Notes under the pieces: generated by a model
What the model saw: only the letters and a program-made list of their open reading frames with translations
The model's database searches: none
What the model was told of the DNA's origin: nothing
NCBI GenBank assembly: GCA_019421015.1
Contig: JAHZGC010000002.1
Span: forward strand, 1,619 to 65,618
Source: Coriobacteriaceae bacterium
GTDB lineage: Bacteria; Actinomycetota; Coriobacteriia; Coriobacteriales; UMGS124
Direction of reading: 5' to 3'
Length of the DNA: 64,000 bases
Made by a program: the position numbers and the translations under genes
Shown here: positions 911 through 63,144 of the stretch, one piece after another
Layout: every line of letters starts with the position of its first letter
Position numbering within the stretch: the stretch's first letter is position 1

Positions 911-964
911 TCGGACGACTCGGTGCTGACGCGGGGAACCGTGGTTTGCGGAGACGGCCAAATC

Positions 965-1180
965 GGCAGATAGCACCGCATAATCAGGCTTCTGGATAGG
1001 GCCGCAAGGCCCTCGATGTTCCGAGGTGCTTGCAAGTGGGGATGATCTTGCGGGTAACGACCCTTCTGAACTGCGGGTTTTCTGGACCCAGGGTCGCACG
1101 GGGGAGCGGGCAGACCGGCAAAGTGCGATGGAGCCCCTCCCGCGCCTATCCAGAACCCTCATTCTGCGGAAGTATCTCGC
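965..1180. repeat. ~215-bp TIR element, copy 1 (MITE/REPIN-like)
   Basis: GGCAGATAGCACCGCATAATCAGGCTTCTGGATAGG (965-1000) is inverted at 1145-1180 (CCTATCCAGAACCCTCATTCTGCGGAAGTATCTCGC). The same ends occur at five other loci in the window. Confidence 0.8.
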
Positions 1181-1275
1181 TTCGGCGCTCTTTGCGGCAA
1201 AAGGCATGGAGGCTCCAGCTGCAAAGCAGCTGTGCCAGCGGTCGCCGCTCGCCCCGCTCGTCCCTCCCCCTCTCC

Positions 1276-7059: not shown

Positions 7060-7514
7060 GATGGTTTCCCTTCCTCTTCCCGTTCCCCCCACGGGTGGTT
7101 CCCGTGGGAGTTCTCCCTATGGGCCGGCGTTGGCGCTTGGGCGCTTTGGTGTTTTGGCGCTTGGACGCGGCCGGCTGCACGGGGCCCTATGTTGGGCGCG
7201 GAGGGGCGGGCCGTCATGACTACAAAATCGCGCATTTGGCGGAGAAGACCCCCAAAAACCGGGGGCGAAGAACGGGGGAGGAGGGCGCGAAAAACGGAGG
7301 AATACCTGGTGGGGAGGGGTAAATGTGATGGCATACCCCGTGGCATGTAAAGGGTGCACTTTTTGCGAGGTGCTCGTGGGAGGGAGATGGAACGGTGGTG
7401 TTGGGATGGTGGTGGCTGGAGGCATGGGGTGAGAACGGGGCCGAGCACCGAGGAGGGGCGGACGCTGGGGGCTGAAAATCATTCTTCTATATGACCTGCG
7501 CTTGATCGCAAAAC

Positions 7515-7747
7515 ACACCCGCAAAACAGGGGTTCGTGTACCGTATGGTGTTTGATGTATACATGGCCATATGACATTATGAATATGATATTTAAGAAAA
7601 CCCCCGGTAGATGCGATATCCTAAAATCGCCCGGCTCTGGCGGAGCCTGCTTTTGTCGATCGGACACGCGCCGTGGGGCGCAGATGAAGCCCAAAATGGG
7701 CGCGTTGTCTCGAAGCCGCGGTACACGAACCCCGGTTTTGCGGGTGT
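7515..7747. repeat. 29-bp inverted-repeat pair enclosing 175 bp, upstream of gene 5347-7059
   Basis: ACACCCGCAAAACAGGGGTTCGTGTACCG at 7515-7543 and its reverse complement (28/29) at 7719-7747. An AT-rich tract follows at 7750-7800. A second pair lies at 43033-43254. Confidence 0.8.
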
Positions 7748-7877
7748 AGTTTCCTAAAAAAGAGTTAATTTTTAATAAGTTGATATATGGTCCACGGCTA
7801 ACGACTACTGTGAGAACGTTGGTCTACCCAATGGGTTGGAAGTTTCCCCTGGAAACCGGGAGCCTTCCCCCAATTAT

Positions 7878-9569: not shown

Positions 9570-9778
9570 AGCCCGTGCGCCCCCTCAAAGCAGCGGCCTG
9601 CTTTACGGGATGAGTCTACCGTTGGGTCGTGTCCGTCGCAAGCGGCCTGCTGGTCCTTGCCGGGTGTGCGTGGGTGCTCGCGGGGGTGCTGGGTGCTCGC
9701 GGGGGTGCTGGGTGCGGGCCGCTTCATGCCGGTGCCCGAAACGGCAGATGCGCCTAAGTTTTCGGCGAGCCCCGAATC

Positions 9779-9993
9779 GGCAGATAGCGCCGCGCTTTGG
9801 GGGTTCTGGATAGGCTCGCAGGTTGCCTGGGTGTCCCTGTTGAAGCGTGGTGTCTCCGGAGTTCTCTGCGCACCTGGTAAAACCACAGTTCAGGAGGTTG
9901 TTGGCAGCGAGGGTTTTCCGCTGCGGGCGAACGGGGTGCATCAGGGCCCCTTGCGGGCCTATCCAGAACCTCCTTTATGCGGAAACATCTCGG
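9779..9993. repeat. ~215-bp TIR element, copy 2
   Basis: GGCAGATAGCGCCGCGCTTTGGGGGTTCTGGATAGG (9779-9814) and CCTATCCAGAACCTCCTTTATGCGGAAACATCTCGG (9958-9993). Internal AAAACCACAGTTCAGGAGG block. Confidence 0.8.
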
Positions 9994-10136
9994 TCGAGAG
10001 TTGCTATCAAAATTAAAAAACCGTACATTGCCGCAGTCCCGTACATCCCGTAAATCCGTGGAACCCGCCGAACATCGCTGCTGTTTGGCGGGTTCCATGA
10101 GGCGTATATGCTTGCGGGTCTTGCAGTTCTCTCGTG

Positions 10137-13255: not shown

Positions 13256-13396
13256 GGCGGCCGTGGGGCTCGATGGCTTGGGGTGCGGCGAACCATAATG
13301 AAGCATTACCGAAGCAATAGTGGGCCTCTCTGCCTGTCCTGGGGCATCGGAGTCCGGCCACCCGCGACAACTTGCACTCACGTCCGACGCCAAACC

Positions 13397-13611
13397 GGCA
13401 GATAGCGCCGCGCTGTGGGGGTTCTGGATAGGCGGTCCGGGGCCGAGGGAGCCCTTCTGCTCCCAAGGTCTTCTCCGCCGCAAAGGGGCACCCAATAAAC
13501 CCGCAGGTCAGAAGGGTGTTGGCTGCGAGATTTTCTCCCCTGCGCGCACATGGGGTACATCGGACCCCTCGCGAGCCTATCCAGAACCCTCATTCTGCGG
13601 AAGCATCTCTG
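13397..13611. repeat. ~215-bp TIR element, copy 3
   Basis: GGCAGATAGCGCCGCGCTGTGGGGGTTCTGGATAGG (13397-13432) and CCTATCCAGAACCCTCATTCTGCGGAAGCATCTCTG (13576-13611). Confidence 0.8.
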
Positions 13612-13644
13612 TTTCGGGGCCCCCTCGCCTGCACCGCCTCCCTC

Positions 13645-42708: not shown

Positions 42709-43032
42709 GGGTTGCGCGCGGGTAATAACGGCCGTGCGATAACGGCTGCGCGGACAGCTGGTGCGACGCGCTTGCCAAACGGTTCCGTCGCCTGGGGGAG
42801 AAACCCCTGGGCGGCGGGACCGCTTGCGTGGGGGAGAAGGGCTGGCGGGTGGGGGCCCGCTGTTGGGATGGGTTTGCGGCCGGATGTGGTCTTTGGGGTG
42901 GGGGGCGCCCGCAACGGGGGACGCCCAGAGCGGGGGACGCCCAACATTACCTATGGGGCGTTGACGCGGGCGCCACGGGAGGGGGTGCGATATGCATCAT
43001 ACATTGAATATTTAACTGTTTTGAACGCAATT

Positions 43033-43254
43033 ACACCCGCGAAAAGGGGGTTCGTGTACCGCGTAACATCTCCGTTTTTTACGCAAAGGGGAGCAAAGGG
43101 GTCGTTGGCGCCATCCCAATGATGGTCGAACGGGGAGCCGCAATTCCGGGTAACACTCTGACCAGGGGTTTTGCCATGGCGTGATTGCACGGCCTTCAGT
43201 CGGGCGGTCAATATCAAACACTGCACGGTACACGAACCCCCGTTGTGCGGGTGT
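43033..43254. repeat. 29-bp inverted-repeat pair enclosing 164 bp, upstream of gene 43326-44171
   Basis: ACACCCGCGAAAAGGGGGTTCGTGTACCG at 43033-43061 and CGGTACACGAACCCCCGTTGTGCGGGTGT at 43226-43254. 26/29 identical to the arm at 7515-7543. Confidence 0.8.
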
Positions 43255-43325
43255 ATTCCCTGTGGCCGTATTTCGCTTCTCGAGAAGATGGTCGTGGCCA
43301 AAGAGGAGATTCCGGAGCTGTAACC

Positions 43326-57206: not shown

Positions 57207-59720
<2,514 letters not shown>

Positions 59721-59865
59721 GGCGAGCGGCGCGGGCGGGGCGAGGCGAGCGATGTGTGCGGCCTGGGCGGCGCGGGCGGGGCGATGGCGTGCGGGCTGGA
59801 GAGTGCGGGCGACCCTCCCAATATGGGAACACCTGTCTGTATGAATCGCTCCCTCGACTTGCAAG

Positions 59866-60092
59866 CCGAGATGCTTCCGCAGAAAGGGGGTTCTGGATAG
59901 GCGCAATCTTTTTTGTTCGAGTTTGCGCTCGGCGGTTGCTTCAAGGGCTAGCGGAGAAATACCTGGTAGATGGGCTGTTTTTATAAGCAGGTACCCACCA
60001 ACTCCAAGGTTTTCTCCCCTAGGGCTGCTACCGGGGGCGTTTGGGCGGTCGAGTTGCCTATCCAGAACCCTGATTATGCGGCGGTATCTGCC
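59866..60092. repeat. ~215-bp TIR element, copy 4 (variant interior)
   Basis: CCGAGATGCTTCCGCAGAAAGGGGGTTCTGGATAGG (59866-59901) and CCTATCCAGAACCCTGATTATGCGGCGGTATCTGCC (60057-60092). Confidence 0.8.
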
Positions 60093-60169
60093 AAAATGGC
60101 CTCCGTAGGCGTTCTGCGGAGAAGTCCCGGAGGTAGTCGGCGAGCGCCCATGCGTGATAGCCTCCCTCC

Positions 60170-61270
60170 ATGGATACGATCATCTGCCTCGAGTCGGCAC
60201 TCGAGATGTATCATGCGGCGCGCATCGTCGACGACCAACGGGGCTCGTCGGATCCTGCCGTGCGGTTATCGGCGCTTTCGCTTAAGCGTTTGAACTGCGG
60301 CAATGTGGGCAGTCGCGCCCCCTCGCCCCAAGATGTCGACCTGCTCTTGCGCCAGTTCGGCCGGTTCTCGGACGCTTGCCTCAAGGAGGGGCCGTGCCCC
60401 GTTGTGGGGTTGACGCCGCCGGTGCACGTTTTGGTTCCCCACGACGTCCCGCGGTGGCAGACCGATCGCCGCGTTTCGCACCGCGCGCCAGCCCGGGTGC
60501 CCGACGGCTCCTTGGTTCGTTTTGAGGACGGCCTGCTTCTGAGCTCGCCCGAGTATCTTTTTCTCCAGGCCGCCATTCAGCTTGATGTGCTCGACCTCGT
60601 TTGGCTGGCCTGCGAACTGTGTTCTCTGTATACCATCCATCCCCGGTGCCGGGGTGCGCTGCTGCCCGCTCGGCCCCTTACCACGCCGCAGCGTCTCGTC
60701 GGCTATGTGGAGAAGGCCTGCGAGCTGGGAGCTTATGGGGCAAAGAAGGCCTTGCGCGCCGCAGGCTATGCGTTGGGACATGCCGCCTCTCGCCGCGAGG
60801 TTGCGTTGGCGCTGTTGGCGACGCTGCCCCGGTCGATGGGTGGGCGGGCGATCCCAAAGCCGCAGCTCAACTACGACATCAAGATCGACGGTCGGCTGGG
60901 GGCAATCCACAATTGGCGGTCGTTTGACGTCGACGCCTGCTGGCCCAACGAGAAGGTCGTGCTTGAGTACGACAGCGACACGCACCATCTGAAGGGTTGG
61001 CGCAGGGCGCGCGACAACGACAAGCGGGAGGCCCTGCGGACGATGGGCTACCGGGTGGTCGAGGTGTCGACGCAGCAGTTCGACTCCTTGGTGATGGTCG
61101 ACGATTCCCTGTTGCGCCTGTGCAACTATCTGGGCGTTCGCAACCGGGCCGGCGAGTCTCGCTACGATTGGCAGCAGCGGCGCTCTGACCTGCGGCGGCG
61201 TCTCTACCGGCTGGACGAGCGGGGGATCGAGTGGTCGCCCACGGGCAGGCGCCGCTCCGGTTCTGCGTAG
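60170..61270 (+). CDS. Hypothetical protein with C-terminal DUF559 (Vsr-like endonuclease fold) region
   Basis: C-terminal ...FDVDACWPNEKVVLEYDSDTHH...RDNDKREALRTMGYRVVEVS matches the DUF559 pattern. No clear SD. Confidence 0.6.
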   Translation: MDTIICLESALEMYHAARIVDDQRGSSDPAVRLSALSLKRLNCGNVGSRAPSPQDVDLLLRQFGRFSDACLKEGPCPVVGLTPPVHVLVPHDVPRWQTDRRVSHRAPARVPDGSLVRFEDGLLLSSPEYLFLQAAIQLDVLDLVWLACELCSLYTIHPRCRGALLPARPLTTPQRLVGYVEKACELGAYGAKKALRAAGYALGHAASRREVALALLATLPRSMGGRAIPKPQLNYDIKIDGRLGAIHNWRSFDVDACWPNEKVVLEYDSDTHHLKGWRRARDNDKREALRTMGYRVVEVSTQQFDSLVMVDDSLLRLCNYLGVRNRAGESRYDWQQRRSDLRRRLYRLDERGIEWSPTGRRRSGSA

Positions 61271-61327
61271 GGCGCAGGGCCGGGAAGCCTAAAACCGGCA
61301 GGCCGCGAGACCGAGAAGCTGCGAAAC

Positions 61328-61543
61328 CCGAGATGCCTCCGCATAATCAAGGTTCTGGATAGGCGGAGGTGGGCGCCGTGCGCTACCCGATGGCCCGCCT
61401 TCGCTCTCGTGCGATTTCGGCCCCAGCAAAATCGCAGTTCAGGAGGGTCATTGCCTGCGGGACCTCCCTGCGTTGCGGGCATCCGGGGACATCGGGGCGC
61501 TCGCGGGCCTATCCAGAACCCTCATTCCGCGGCGCTATCTGCC
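61328..61543. repeat. ~215-bp TIR element, copy 5
   Basis: CCGAGATGCCTCCGCATAATCAAGGTTCTGGATAGG (61328-61363) and CCTATCCAGAACCCTCATTCCGCGGCGCTATCTGCC (61508-61543). Confidence 0.8.
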
Positions 61544-61720
61544 CTTGGGGCTATCCGCCTGTAAGACTGCCGGGCAATCGGGCGTCCGTCGGGGATGACA
61601 ATTCGTGCGTGCGCCGGCAATGCCCATGGGTATGCTCTAGTAGTATGACAGGTGATGTACAATTGCATCTTACATTATGCCCATCACCAGTCGCGTTGCC
61701 AGCTTGTAGAGGAGGCTCAT

Positions 61721-62248
61721 GTGGCCCAGGCGGTTCTGAGCGTGCGCATGGACGAAGAGACCAAGCGCGCCTTTGTGGACTTCTGCGATCAGATTGGCAT
61801 GAGCGTGTCGACAGCAATCAACATGTTTGCTCGCCAAACGCTTAGGGAGCAGCGGCTGCCGTTCATCCCTTCGCTTAGCATGCCCAACACCCCCGCCGCT
61901 TTCGATTCCGGCCCTGGTTTTGGCAGTCCAACCGAGATTCCCGTTGCGCTTAGCCGTCTTGATATAGCGAAGGCGGTGGAACGGGCGGCCGCGCCCTTTG
62001 TTGCCATCGATCGCGTCGTCCTGTTCGGATCCCATGCACGTGGGGACGCGCGCCCCGACAGCGACATCGACCTGCGCATCGTTCGTGCAACGGCGGCCGT
62101 TCTCACCTGCGCGAACATTGCGGCTTTTAGCGAGGCCGTTGGGGTGGAGACGGGCAGGAGGGTCGATGTGGTCTCCGCGCGTGTCATCAAAGACGAAGCG
62201 TTGGCGGCCGCCATTGAGCGAGAGGGCGTCGTGGTCTATGAGCGCTAA
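61721..62248 (+). CDS. RelB/DinJ-like RHH domain fused to MNT-type nucleotidyltransferase (antitoxin of a HEPN/MNT pair)
   Basis: GTG 61721 after GAGGAGG. The N-terminal SVRMDEETKRAFVDFCDQIGMSVSTAINMFARQ is RelB/DinJ-like. VVLFGSHARGDARPDSDIDL is the nucleotidyltransferase GS-x9-DxD motif. Confidence 0.7.
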   Translation: MAQAVLSVRMDEETKRAFVDFCDQIGMSVSTAINMFARQTLREQRLPFIPSLSMPNTPAAFDSGPGFGSPTEIPVALSRLDIAKAVERAAAPFVAIDRVVLFGSHARGDARPDSDIDLRIVRATAAVLTCANIAAFSEAVGVETGRRVDVVSARVIKDEALAAAIEREGVVVYER

Positions 62249-62551
62249 GGGTACGGATATCAAACGTGTCAGGGAACTGTATGCCGTCATCCAAGAAACC
62301 AAGGAGCGGCTGGCCCATCTGAACCTCACCAAGGAAGACTTCTTGAGCGATGAGACCGTCGGAGGCCGCTTGGCGGCGGATGGCCTGCTCATGTGTGTTT
62401 TAGGGCTACCGAAGAGGCCGGGGCCATGTCGCAGGAGACGCGGGAGGCGTATCCGTCTATCTACTGGGCCGGCATAAAGAGCATGCGCAACATTTTGGCT
62501 CACGACTACGGGGCCGCCGATCGGGAGGCTATCTGGGACAGCATCGAGTGA
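62238..62551 (+). pseudogene. HEPN (DUF86) toxin gene with a 1-nt deletion in a T-run
   Basis: The frame starting at ATG 62238 ends at TAA 62475. The -1 frame from ~62396 encodes ...VFRATEEAGAMSQETREAYPSIYWAGIKSMRNILAHDYG (the R-x4-H HEPN motif) up to TGA 62549-62551. The switch is at TTTT 62398-62401. Confidence 0.7.
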
Positions 62552-62691
62552 GACTTTCCCGAGCTTGAAGAGTTTTGCATAGCGTACTGCGAGGATCACG
62601 GGGAATCGGTGGAGGGGTAGCGACGGGGAGCGCGACAATGGTGGTCGCAAGATGTGCTACGGACTGATCGGTTTTCAGCAAGCTGAGAAGT

Positions 62692-62903
62692 CCGAGATGC
62701 TTCCGCGGAATTGGGGTTCTGGATAGGCGGGTGGGGGTGCTTTGCGCGCCATGGCGGGTCATCTTTGCCTCGCGGGTCCAGGTCTAGTAAAACCGCAGTT
62801 CAGGAGGGTCATTGCCTGGGGGCCTCCCTGTGCTGCGGGCTCGTGGGGACATCGGGGCGCTCGCGGGCCTATCCAGAACCCTCATTCCGCGGCGCTATCT
62901 CCC
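62692..62903. repeat. ~215-bp TIR element, copy 6
   Basis: CCGAGATGCTTCCGCGGAATTGGGGTTCTGGATAGG (62692-62727) and CCTATCCAGAACCCTCATTCCGCGGCGCTATCTCCC (62868-62903). The right half of the interior is nearly identical to copy 5. Confidence 0.8.
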
Positions 62904-63144
62904 GATTCAATGATAATCAAAAGCACAAGTTAGCCTGTCCCGCCCGTGTTGCCCTCATTTAGACAATCGACCCCCGTTTGTCGCGGGTTTGGGTGTTGCG
63001 TCCCCACGCAGGGTACAAGCTCCCCCAAGGCCCCGGTATCCGCGCCGCGCCTACGTCCCGCCCGTGCGTGCTTGCCGGGCGGCGCTTCCCTTGAGTGCGC
63101 GGGCTTCTCGGGCCGGACAACCCGCGTCATGCAAAGGAGTCCAC

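What the first reader, a model, noticed from the sequence alone, without database searches (positions are those of the whole stretch)
59866..62903. Element-cassette-element-cassette-element layout: TIR elements bracket single accessory modules
Copies 4, 5 and 6 of the ~215-bp TIR element all lie in the same orientation, with the CCGAGATG end first. They alternate with compact modules: [59866-60092], the DUF559 endonuclease-like gene, [61328-61543], the RHH-MNT/HEPN pair, [62692-62903]. The cargo (TA modules and orphan nuclease-fold genes) and the alternation resemble integron cassette arrays or MITE-mediated gene capture. However, no integrase is present in the window and the element ends do not match attC R'/R'' consensus.
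Basis: partly seen in the sequence, partly recalled or inferred. Interest (0 to 1): 0.6.

Follow-up and report, generated by a model that had tools for sequence, protein, structure and literature searches.

The report
Correia-like repeats bracketing accessory genes
Three copies of a 217-bp inverted-repeat element, from a family of about 55 copies in this gut actinobacterium, flank a nuclease-like gene and a toxin-antitoxin pair; this is not an integron, but one element does mark a rearrangement breakpoint between strains.

Summary
The layout is real: three same-orientation elements (59865-60093, 61327-61544, 62691-62904) alternate with a DUF559-like gene and a RelB-MNT/HepT pair.

The elements belong to a species-restricted family of 48 intact and about 6 degenerate copies. 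All intact copies are intergenic and most lie at gene 3' ends. A three-copy cluster is not rare by chance (P about 0.2).

No integron integrase exists in the genome. The ends do not fit attC, and no target-site duplication, transposase or RNA structure was found.

Each end has a 13-nt outer block in two forms, an 8-nt spacer and an invariant 14-nt core. Lengths fall at 207, 217 and 228 bp through independent 10-11-bp indels. The asymmetric interior faces either way relative to the outer blocks. Between strains the ends change about 3.6 times less than the interior.

The array is unchanged in 13 contigs from other samples. One lineage joins copy 5's inner part to the outer arm and flank of a different element. 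Copies 5 and 6 also exchange sequence patches.

Best reading: an old Correia-like repeat family that acts as a recombination hot spot, not a dedicated cassette system.

The parts
59865..60093 (+). Element copy 4 (229 bp, long length class). It has an A-type left arm and a B-type right arm, and its interior is the most divergent of the family.
   Evidence: In a diverged strain lineage (L008/L003) it sits at the same site, with 2/76 changes in the terminal repeats against 28/153 in the interior.
60170..61270 (+). 366-aa gene with a DUF559/Vsr-like nuclease-fold C-terminus. It is one of 10 paralogs in the genome.
   Evidence: Weak Pfam hit to PF18741 (E = 0.008, below cut-off). Nine paralogs at 26-35% identity, none next to an element. 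The identical protein occurs on 17 contigs from other samples.
61327..61544 (+). Element copy 5 (218 bp). Its left terminal repeat holds the strain-variable junction.
   Evidence: In L095/L142 the outer block and flank are replaced, and the switch lies within CCGCATAATCA.
61721..62248 (+). RelB (ribbon-helix-helix) fused to an MNT nucleotidyltransferase: the antitoxin. It starts at GTG with an AGGAGG 5 nt upstream.
   Evidence: Pfam RelB 2.1e-11, Polbeta 2.3e-12, NTP_transf_2 1e-8.
62238..62620 (+). HepT (HEPN) toxin gene. It is a pseudogene here, with one frameshift and one TGA in place of TGC.
   Evidence: HepT-like hit 2e-9 on the C-terminal fragment. An intact 127-aa version exists in L095 and on 11 contigs.
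62691..62904 (+). Element copy 6 (214 bp), the closest relative of copy 5.
   Evidence: Patch exchange with copy 5 between strains.
964..1181 (-). Element copy 1.
   Evidence: The ortholog in L094 (95.5% lineage) is retained.
9778..9994 (-). Element copy 2. Its interior is inverted relative to its arms (BA class).
13396..13612 (-). Element copy 3. Its interior is inverted relative to its arms (BA class).

Best explanation
The three repeats are members of an old, species-restricted, non-coding family of Correia-like (MITE-like) intergenic elements, about 55 copies in 3.9 Mb. Each element is a DNA-level module. Two 37-bp inverted end sites sit a whole number of helical turns apart (about 17), around an asymmetric interior. 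This suggests that an unidentified protein binds the two ends as a pair. This step is inferred. The copies no longer move at a detectable rate. They do act as recombination substrates in three ways. The interior has flipped between its own inverted ends several times during the family's history. Neighbouring copies convert one another. At least once, two different copies exchanged flanks, with the crossover inside the conserved CCGC-spacer-core stretch. The DUF559-like gene and the MNT/HepT pair are ordinary small accessory modules lying in element-rich intergenic DNA. Copies 5 and 6 around the toxin-antitoxin pair arose by local duplication or conversion. There is no integron-type cassette machinery.
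For: Family size and restriction: 48 paired plus 13 solo cores; 52 copies in the own genome and none in 40 relatives; no other GTDB species. All 48 copies are intergenic: 18 convergent, 27 tandem, 3 divergent. No RNA family match. No covariation or interior structure. Lengths are 216-218 bp (32 copies), 226-229 bp (13) and 207-208 bp (2), produced by indels at different places. Interior orientation is independent of arm type: 25 forward and 23 reverse, 25 AB, 19 BA and 4 unassigned after realignment. The two classes are mixed in the interior tree. The assortment boundary maps to CCGC-spacer-core. Orthologous substitutions are 13/604 in terminal repeats against 91/1145 in interiors, p = 2e-7. 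The element is retained at all 7 orthologous sites, in lineages down to 94% identity. A variant junction occurs in L095 and L142 from two samples. No integron integrase. Published Correia elements invert in situ and sit at rearrangement breakpoints (PMC10969869, PMC3454330).
Against: No target-site duplication at any offset. No autonomous element with these ends, in this genome or elsewhere. No presence/absence polymorphism. Past transposition is therefore inferred only from the dispersed, inverted-repeat-bounded architecture. Conservation of the ends at fixed sites, together with the helical-phase length rule, points to present-day selection or concerted evolution, which a dead selfish element would not show. 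In the L142 junction the crossover interval is only 11 nt of identity. That is short for RecA recombination and leaves room for a site-specific enzyme.
Confidence: 0.6

Rival explanations
1. The ends are sites of a dedicated site-specific recombination system with an unidentified recombinase encoded elsewhere. This system would invert interiors and excise, integrate or swap the segments between elements. It would be integron- or shufflon-like in logic but use different sites and a different enzyme.
For: Outer blocks stay with the flanks while the inner repeat and interior assort freely. The L142 breakpoint falls in an 11-nt interval inside the terminal repeat. Contigs L143 and L145 show a hybrid element (left part of copy 6 joined to the right flank of copy 5) followed by the MNT gene, as a circle junction or tandem duplication would give. 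The ends are conserved in place and phased in length. Other element pairs bracket whole regulator-plus-reductase modules.
Against: No recombinase tracks the element. The seven tyrosine and two serine recombinases and the two IS200-like Y1 genes are not associated with it. The exception is one serine recombinase at C18, which has its own perfect 21-bp inverted-repeat pair nearby. The 8-nt spacer differs between the two ends of a single element, which is unfavourable for tyrosine or serine strand exchange. Flips are rare, with none at 7 orthologous sites and only about 6 or more across a tree whose nearest neighbours are 40-83% identical. L143 is exactly one turn of a graph cycle at 1.66x coverage across a roughly 105-nt identical stretch, which misassembly also produces. 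The array is invariant in 13 contigs.
Confidence: 0.13
2. The element is mainly a host-maintained cis-acting DNA module, such as an operon insulator, a terminator or a docking site for a nucleoid protein. It may never have been mobile, and spread by segmental duplication and conversion.
For: Ends are conserved in place and interiors evolve fast. Length is quantised in steps of 10-11 bp, including one copy with an insertion offset by a deletion. Copies are enriched at gene 3' ends and depleted between divergent genes. On one strand the conserved interior carries a hairpin (CCGCAGG...CCTGCGG) followed by TTTTA. There is no target duplication and no transposase.
Against: Neither the arm polarity (19 of 27 tandem contexts co-directional) nor the interior orientation (10 of 24 assignable tandem contexts have the interior's forward strand co-directional with the genes) is clearly tied to the direction of the neighbouring genes. 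The terminator scan does not call the interior hairpin. Fifty-five dispersed copies with inverted ends are hard to produce without some form of mobility. A second family shares the outer repeat design, as transposon families do.
Confidence: 0.22
3. The element encodes a structured non-coding RNA or a small protein.
For: The inverted ends could pair into a long stem in a transcript. On the A-to-B strand, two of the arm mismatches become G-U pairs (read directly from the sequence).
Against: No Rfam match even at E up to 1. RNAalifold finds only the invariant end stem, with no compensatory changes. Interiors fold no better than shuffled controls, mean z = -0.7. The interior occurs in both orientations relative to the ends. 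Single-base indels break every reading frame.
Confidence: 0.03

Closest known systems
Correia repeat-enclosed elements (CREE/NEMIS) of Neisseria
   Same: Both are 100-230-bp non-coding intergenic elements with terminal inverted repeats and no transposase, present in tens to hundreds of copies. Published CREE invert in situ, are recombination hot spots and sit at chromosomal inversion breakpoints (PMC10969869, PMC3454330). From my own recall, not read here, CREE ends also come in two sequence forms.
   Different: There is no sequence relation, and the host is a high-GC Coriobacteriia species. No TA or other target duplication was found. The ends are longer and tripartite (13 + 8 + 14 nt), with an extra 28-nt hairpin extension at one end. 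Lengths step by one helical turn. No promoter, IHF site or RNase III processing has been shown.
Integron attC cassette arrays
   Same: Same-orientation imperfect palindromes alternate with compact, often toxin-antitoxin, modules. Conserved outer and inner boxes are separated by a variable spacer around a variable centre. The inferred crossover lies near the outer box.
   Different: There is no IntI in the genome, no attI or Pc, and no R'/R'' consensus. The sites are 217 bp rather than 57-141 bp and are dispersed genome-wide. The interior flips relative to the ends, which attC biology does not predict.
Invertons (invertible promoter segments, e.g. Bacteroides Mpi targets, C. difficile RecV switches)
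   Same: Both are segments of about 150-250 bp flanked by 20-40-bp inverted repeats, and here the interior is found in both orientations across copies.
   Different: No orientation polymorphism appears at any of 7 loci compared across assemblies. Many copies lie between convergent genes. No promoter has been shown and no invertase is associated. A separate, classic-looking inverton candidate lies elsewhere in the genome.
BIME-1/RIP and REPIN elements with RAYT
   Same: Both have two inverted protein-binding repeats around a centre, lie in intergenic 3' positions, and are conserved by the host or by an associated enzyme.
   Different: Neither of the two Y1 genes is flanked by the element; both look like IS200 copies with their own hairpin. 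The element is about twice as long as typical REPINs.

Membership tests
Integron (attC cassette array) | IntI-type tyrosine integrase in the genome, normally next to the array | tested here: not met
   TIGR02249: best 74.8 bits against a cut-off of 265. The hits are Xer-like.
Integron (attC cassette array) | attC ends with R'' RYYYAAC and R' GTTRRRY | tested here: not met
   The ends read GAGATGCTTCCGC-N8-GGTTCTGGATAGGC. The only GTT is followed by CTGG.
Integron (attC cassette array) | Cassette content varies between strains at attC boundaries | tested here: inconclusive
   13 contigs are identical in order. One lineage has a different left junction at copy 5.
MITE | Short, non-coding, multi-copy, with terminal inverted repeats | tested here: met
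   48 intact copies of 207-229 bp with 37-bp repeats. Frames are not conserved.
MITE | Target-site duplication flanking the copies | tested here: not met
   No enriched direct repeat at any offset. The longest flank match averages 5.81 nt against 5.83 nt in shuffled pairs.
MITE | Autonomous insertion sequence with the same ends | tested here: not met
   Every core pairs within 400 bp or is a solo; those inspected in sequence belong to degenerate normal-size elements. No other species carries the ends.
MITE | Insertion polymorphism between strains | tested here: not met
   The element is present at 7 of 7 orthologous sites, in lineages of 94-99% identity.
Correia-like elements | In-situ inversion and rearrangement breakpoints at elements | tested here: met
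   Interior orientation is mixed in the tree. The L142 junction lies inside a terminal repeat. This is historical evidence only.
Correia-like elements | TA duplication, IHF site, end promoters, RNase III cleavage | tested here: inconclusive
   No duplication was found. The other features cannot be tested with these tools.
Inverton | Both orientations present within a population | not testable with these tools
Assemblies show one orientation per locus.
Inverton | Dedicated invertase acting on the inverted repeats | tested here: inconclusive
   A 200-aa serine recombinase lies 480 bp from one degenerate copy, but it also has its own perfect 21-bp inverted-repeat pair.
REPIN/RAYT | Single-copy Y1 transposase flanked by the repeat | tested here: not met
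   Two Y1 genes, neither flanked by family motifs.
Structured RNA family | Conserved secondary structure with compensatory changes | tested here: not met
HepT/MNT type VII toxin-antitoxin pair | Adjacent MNT nucleotidyltransferase and HepT (HEPN) genes, overlapping | tested here: met
   Pfam hits. The two genes overlap by 11 nt (ATG at 62238; MNT stop codon ends at 62248). The toxin is broken in the window and intact in other strains.

The most novel reading that the evidence does not exclude
The roughly 55 elements are the sites of an undescribed recombination system. A protein pairs the two phased ends and exchanges DNA at the CCGC-spacer-core boundary. This would flip interiors and move or swap the gene modules lying between elements, including toxin-antitoxin pairs and whole regulator-plus-reductase units. 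It would be a genome-wide cassette shuffler in gut Eggerthellaceae that works without an integron integrase.
Probability: 0.12. Interest if true: 0.8.

Novelty: new member of a known kind. Interest (0 to 1): 0.42.

Why it matters
Gut Eggerthellaceae carry dozens of paralogous reductase modules that act on drugs and dietary compounds, and how these modules are gained, lost and rearranged is poorly understood. This repeat family sits at the borders of several such modules. In one lineage it also marks a junction joining a LysR-gene flank to the toxin-antitoxin pair and the flavoprotein reductase gene beside it. If the elements are recombination hot spots, they help explain strain-level differences in gene order. 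The family also offers a clean case for studying what conserves such repeats: the ends are conserved in place, and length changes only by whole helical turns.

Tried and rejected
1. Insertion into a pre-existing palindromic target. This would also explain the free orientation of the interior, but the genome holds only one site where the two outer arms abut (C6:28024).
2. RNA structure. No Rfam match at the gathering threshold or at E up to 1. RNAalifold on both strands and fold energies against shuffles all gave nothing.
3. Terminator function. Orientation is not tied to gene direction and the scan is negative.
4. Synteny in relatives. There is no same-genus genome, and the best UvrA-paralog homologs are only 74% identical, so only strain-level contigs could be used.
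5. Element in other species. A full-pattern scan found none. The 40 single-end hits, one per record in unrelated taxa, look like chance matches.
6. Plasmid origin of the toxin-antitoxin cassette. No match.
7. RAYT or IS200 link and integron integrase. Both negative.
8. Serine recombinase at C18 as a master invertase. This is weakened because the gene has its own separate 21-bp inverted-repeat switch, and no orientation difference appears in five assemblies.
9. Read mining.
10. The paper on Correia promoters and subtypes (PMC3024310) is not held.
Full report
OBSERVATION
- All three have the GAGATGC-type arm on the left and the CAGATAGCG-type arm on the right.
- Three genes lie between them:
  - a 366-aa ORF at 60170-61270;
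  - a RelB-MNT fusion gene at 61721-62248 (Pfam RelB 2e-11, Polbeta 2e-12);
  - a HepT gene at 62238-62620, broken here by a frameshift and a TGA.
- The 366-aa protein reaches only a sub-threshold hit to the nuclease family PF18741 (E = 0.008).
- That protein has nine paralogs in the genome, and none lies beside an element.

THE FAMILY
- The window is C12:1619-65618 of a 3.92-Mb, 57-contig genome.
- The core GGTTCTGGATAGG, allowing one mismatch, occurs 109 times, as 48 inverted pairs plus 13 solo cores. The solos I inspected in sequence belong to degenerate normal-size elements.
- A pattern search gives 52 copies in this genome and none in 40 relatives from 27 other genera.
- No other GTDB species has the full pattern.
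- The 40 single-end matches elsewhere, one per record in unrelated taxa, look like chance matches.

ANATOMY
- Each end reads, from outside to inside:
  - a 13-nt outer block in two main forms, A = GAGATGCTTCCGC and B = CAGATAGCGCCGC, with intermediates;
  - an 8-nt semi-variable spacer;
  - an almost invariant core, GGTTCTGGATAGGC.
- Both ends are preceded by CCRAA.
- Most B ends carry about 28 further conserved bases outside, GATTTGGC..CGCCGCAAACGCGG, which include a small hairpin.
- The interior is asymmetric. About 60 variable bases are followed by a conserved stretch: TAAAACCGCAGGTCAGGAGGGTGTTGGCTGC ... TTTCTCCCCTGCGGGC ... GGAACATCGGGGC.
- Lengths are 216-218 bp in 32 copies, 226-229 bp in 13 and 207-208 bp in 2 (copy 6 is 214 bp).
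- The long and short forms arise from 10-11-bp indels at different positions in different lineages.
- One copy (C32_15572) carries an 11-bp insertion offset by a deletion of similar size elsewhere.
- I read this as a constraint that keeps the two ends on the same face of the DNA helix, about 17 turns apart. This is an inference.

NOT RNA, NOT CODING
- Rfam gives nothing at the gathering threshold or at E up to 1.
- RNAalifold on either strand predicts only the stem formed by the two ends, and that stem is invariant rather than covarying.
- Interiors fold no better than shuffled interiors, mean z = -0.7.
- Single-base indels destroy every reading frame.

INTERIOR ORIENTATION
- With the arms oriented A to B, the central motif lies at the same offset but points forward in 25 copies and backward in 23.
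- After re-orienting by the interior, the alignment improves markedly. It gives 25 AB copies, 19 BA copies and 4 unassigned.
- The two classes are mixed throughout the interior tree. The nearest neighbour is of the same class in only 20 of 47 cases. One AB/BA pair is 80% identical.
- Positions in the outer block associate only with arm type. Positions +14 and +16 inside the core associate only with the interior side. The CCGC, spacer and core positions associate with neither.
- So the outer arms and the interior have been re-assorted repeatedly, and the exchange falls within the roughly 26 conserved bases.
- Only one site in the genome has the two arms abutting without an interior (C6:28024). 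Insertion into a palindromic target is therefore unlikely.

GENOMIC CONTEXT
- All 48 copies are intergenic: 18 between convergent genes, 27 between tandem genes and 3 between divergent genes.
- No target-site duplication is detectable.
- Other element pairs bracket LuxR/LysR-plus-reductase modules rather than toxin-antitoxin genes.
- Random placement in intergenic gaps yields three or more copies within 3.1 kb in 21.5% of trials.

STRAINS
- Seventeen contigs from other samples encode the identical 366-aa protein.
- The ten contigs fetched for this protein, plus three more fetched through the MNT protein, are collinear with the window.
- I compared seven orthologous element sites, some in lineages only 94-97% identical. 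The element is always present and in the same orientation.
- Substitution counts at these sites:

| Region | Changes / sites |
|---|---|
| Terminal repeats | 13 / 604 |
| Interiors | 91 / 1145 |
| Flanks | 76 / 1717 |

- Terminal repeats against interiors give Fisher p = 2e-7.
- The ends are therefore held constant in place while the interiors drift.
- A second lineage differs (L095 = ERZ1745032; L142 = ERZ28660544, 100% identical over the shared 1758 bp, with three similar places not shown):
  - Its HepT is intact, at 127 aa.
  - Left of copy 5's CCGCATAATCA it carries a B-type block with the hairpin extension.
  - Beyond that block it carries a flank 88-89% identical to the flank of another element, C1_10531, which lies next to a LysR gene. 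That flank is interrupted by a copy of a different, highly abundant repeat.
- This is a rearrangement between two elements with the crossover inside the terminal repeat.
- Copies 5 and 6 also carry swapped interior patches in this lineage.
- Contigs L143 and L145 show the left part of copy 6 joined to copy 5's right flank, followed by the MNT gene. A circle junction or a tandem duplication would give this.
- However, L143 is exactly one turn of a graph cycle at 1.66x coverage, across a roughly 105-nt identical stretch, so misassembly is equally possible.

ENZYMES
- The genome has seven tyrosine recombinases, none of integron type.
- It has two serine recombinases and two IS200-like Y1 genes that are not flanked by the element.
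- One 200-aa serine recombinase (C18:47579-48181) lies 480 bp from a degenerate 244-bp family member.
- That locus also holds a unique pair of perfect 21-bp inverted repeats, 69 bp apart. The pair sits directly upstream of a 183-aa gene, a NusG paralog and sugar-transferase genes. It is a more conventional target for this recombinase.
- Five assemblies show no orientation difference at this locus.

COMPARISON WITH KNOWN SYSTEMS
- The closest described elements are the Correia elements of Neisseria.
- A 2024 review reports that they undergo inversion and that MITEs are recombination hot spots (PMC10969869).
- A genome comparison places Correia elements at an inversion breakpoint (PMC3454330).
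- The present family shares that behaviour but differs in several ways:
  - it has no target duplication;
  - it has tripartite ends and a one-sided extension;
  - its length follows the helical-turn rule;
  - its ends are demonstrably conserved in place.
- I found no paper describing MITEs in Eggerthellaceae.

VERDICT
- The layout is real, but it is one local cluster of a dispersed Correia-like family, not an integron.
- A dedicated cassette-exchange mechanism remains unproven.

Noticed in passing
L148:5073-5183 (= G000 C18:49072-49182): A unique pair of perfect 21-bp inverted repeats (AAAAGGTAGACATTTTGATGA), 69 bp apart. It lies downstream of a 200-aa serine recombinase and directly upstream of a 183-aa gene, a NusG paralog, Bac_transf and WecG genes. 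This is a candidate phase-variable switch for a polysaccharide operon. Five assemblies show the same orientation.
   Followed up: partly
window 62238-62620: The HepT toxin gene is a pseudogene in this genome and in the other collinear contigs whose gene calls cover it (a 41-aa HepT fragment). It is intact (127 aa) in a second lineage found on 11 contigs. That lineage also has the different junction at copy 5.
   Followed up: yes
window 7512-7773 and 43007-43257: A second repeat family of about 13 copies, each about 200-230 bp. It shares the outer design of the ends (..CCGC-AAAACGGG-GGTTC) but continues with GTGTACCG instead of TGGATAGG, and has an AT-rich side.
   Followed up: partly
L142:100-215; also the flanks of G000 C17:53597 and C18:40450: A further repeat of about 110 bp (TTATGTGCTCCAGCACACCGCGCCCTCGC...) gives well over 100 BLAST matches across the genome's contigs. 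In one lineage it is inserted into the flank joined to copy 5.
   Followed up: no
G000 C6:28024-28082: A collapsed element. The two outer arms and spacers are joined through GGTTCC with the whole interior missing. It is the only such site in the genome.
   Followed up: partly
window 57207-59720: The gene upstream of copy 4 is a UvrA paralog. Its best homologs in other species are only 74% identical, which shows how isolated this lineage is among sequenced Coriobacteriia.
   Followed up: partly
window 59720-59865 compared with L002, L003 and L008: The spacer between the UvrA paralog and copy 4 is GC-rich, repetitive (GGGCGGGGCGAGG...) and differs in length between strains (a 41-bp deletion, or larger replacements). 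In the L003/L008 lineage, identity to the window rises from about 94% upstream of 60143 (measured on L003; L008 starts at 59823) to about 99.9% downstream.
   Followed up: partly
G000 C34:68016-68351 and C18:20309-20671: Two diverged IS200-like Y1 transposase genes, each preceded by a CAAACCACAGGC..GCCTGTGG hairpin. The C34 copy appears truncated and runs into a flavoprotein gene fragment.
   Followed up: no
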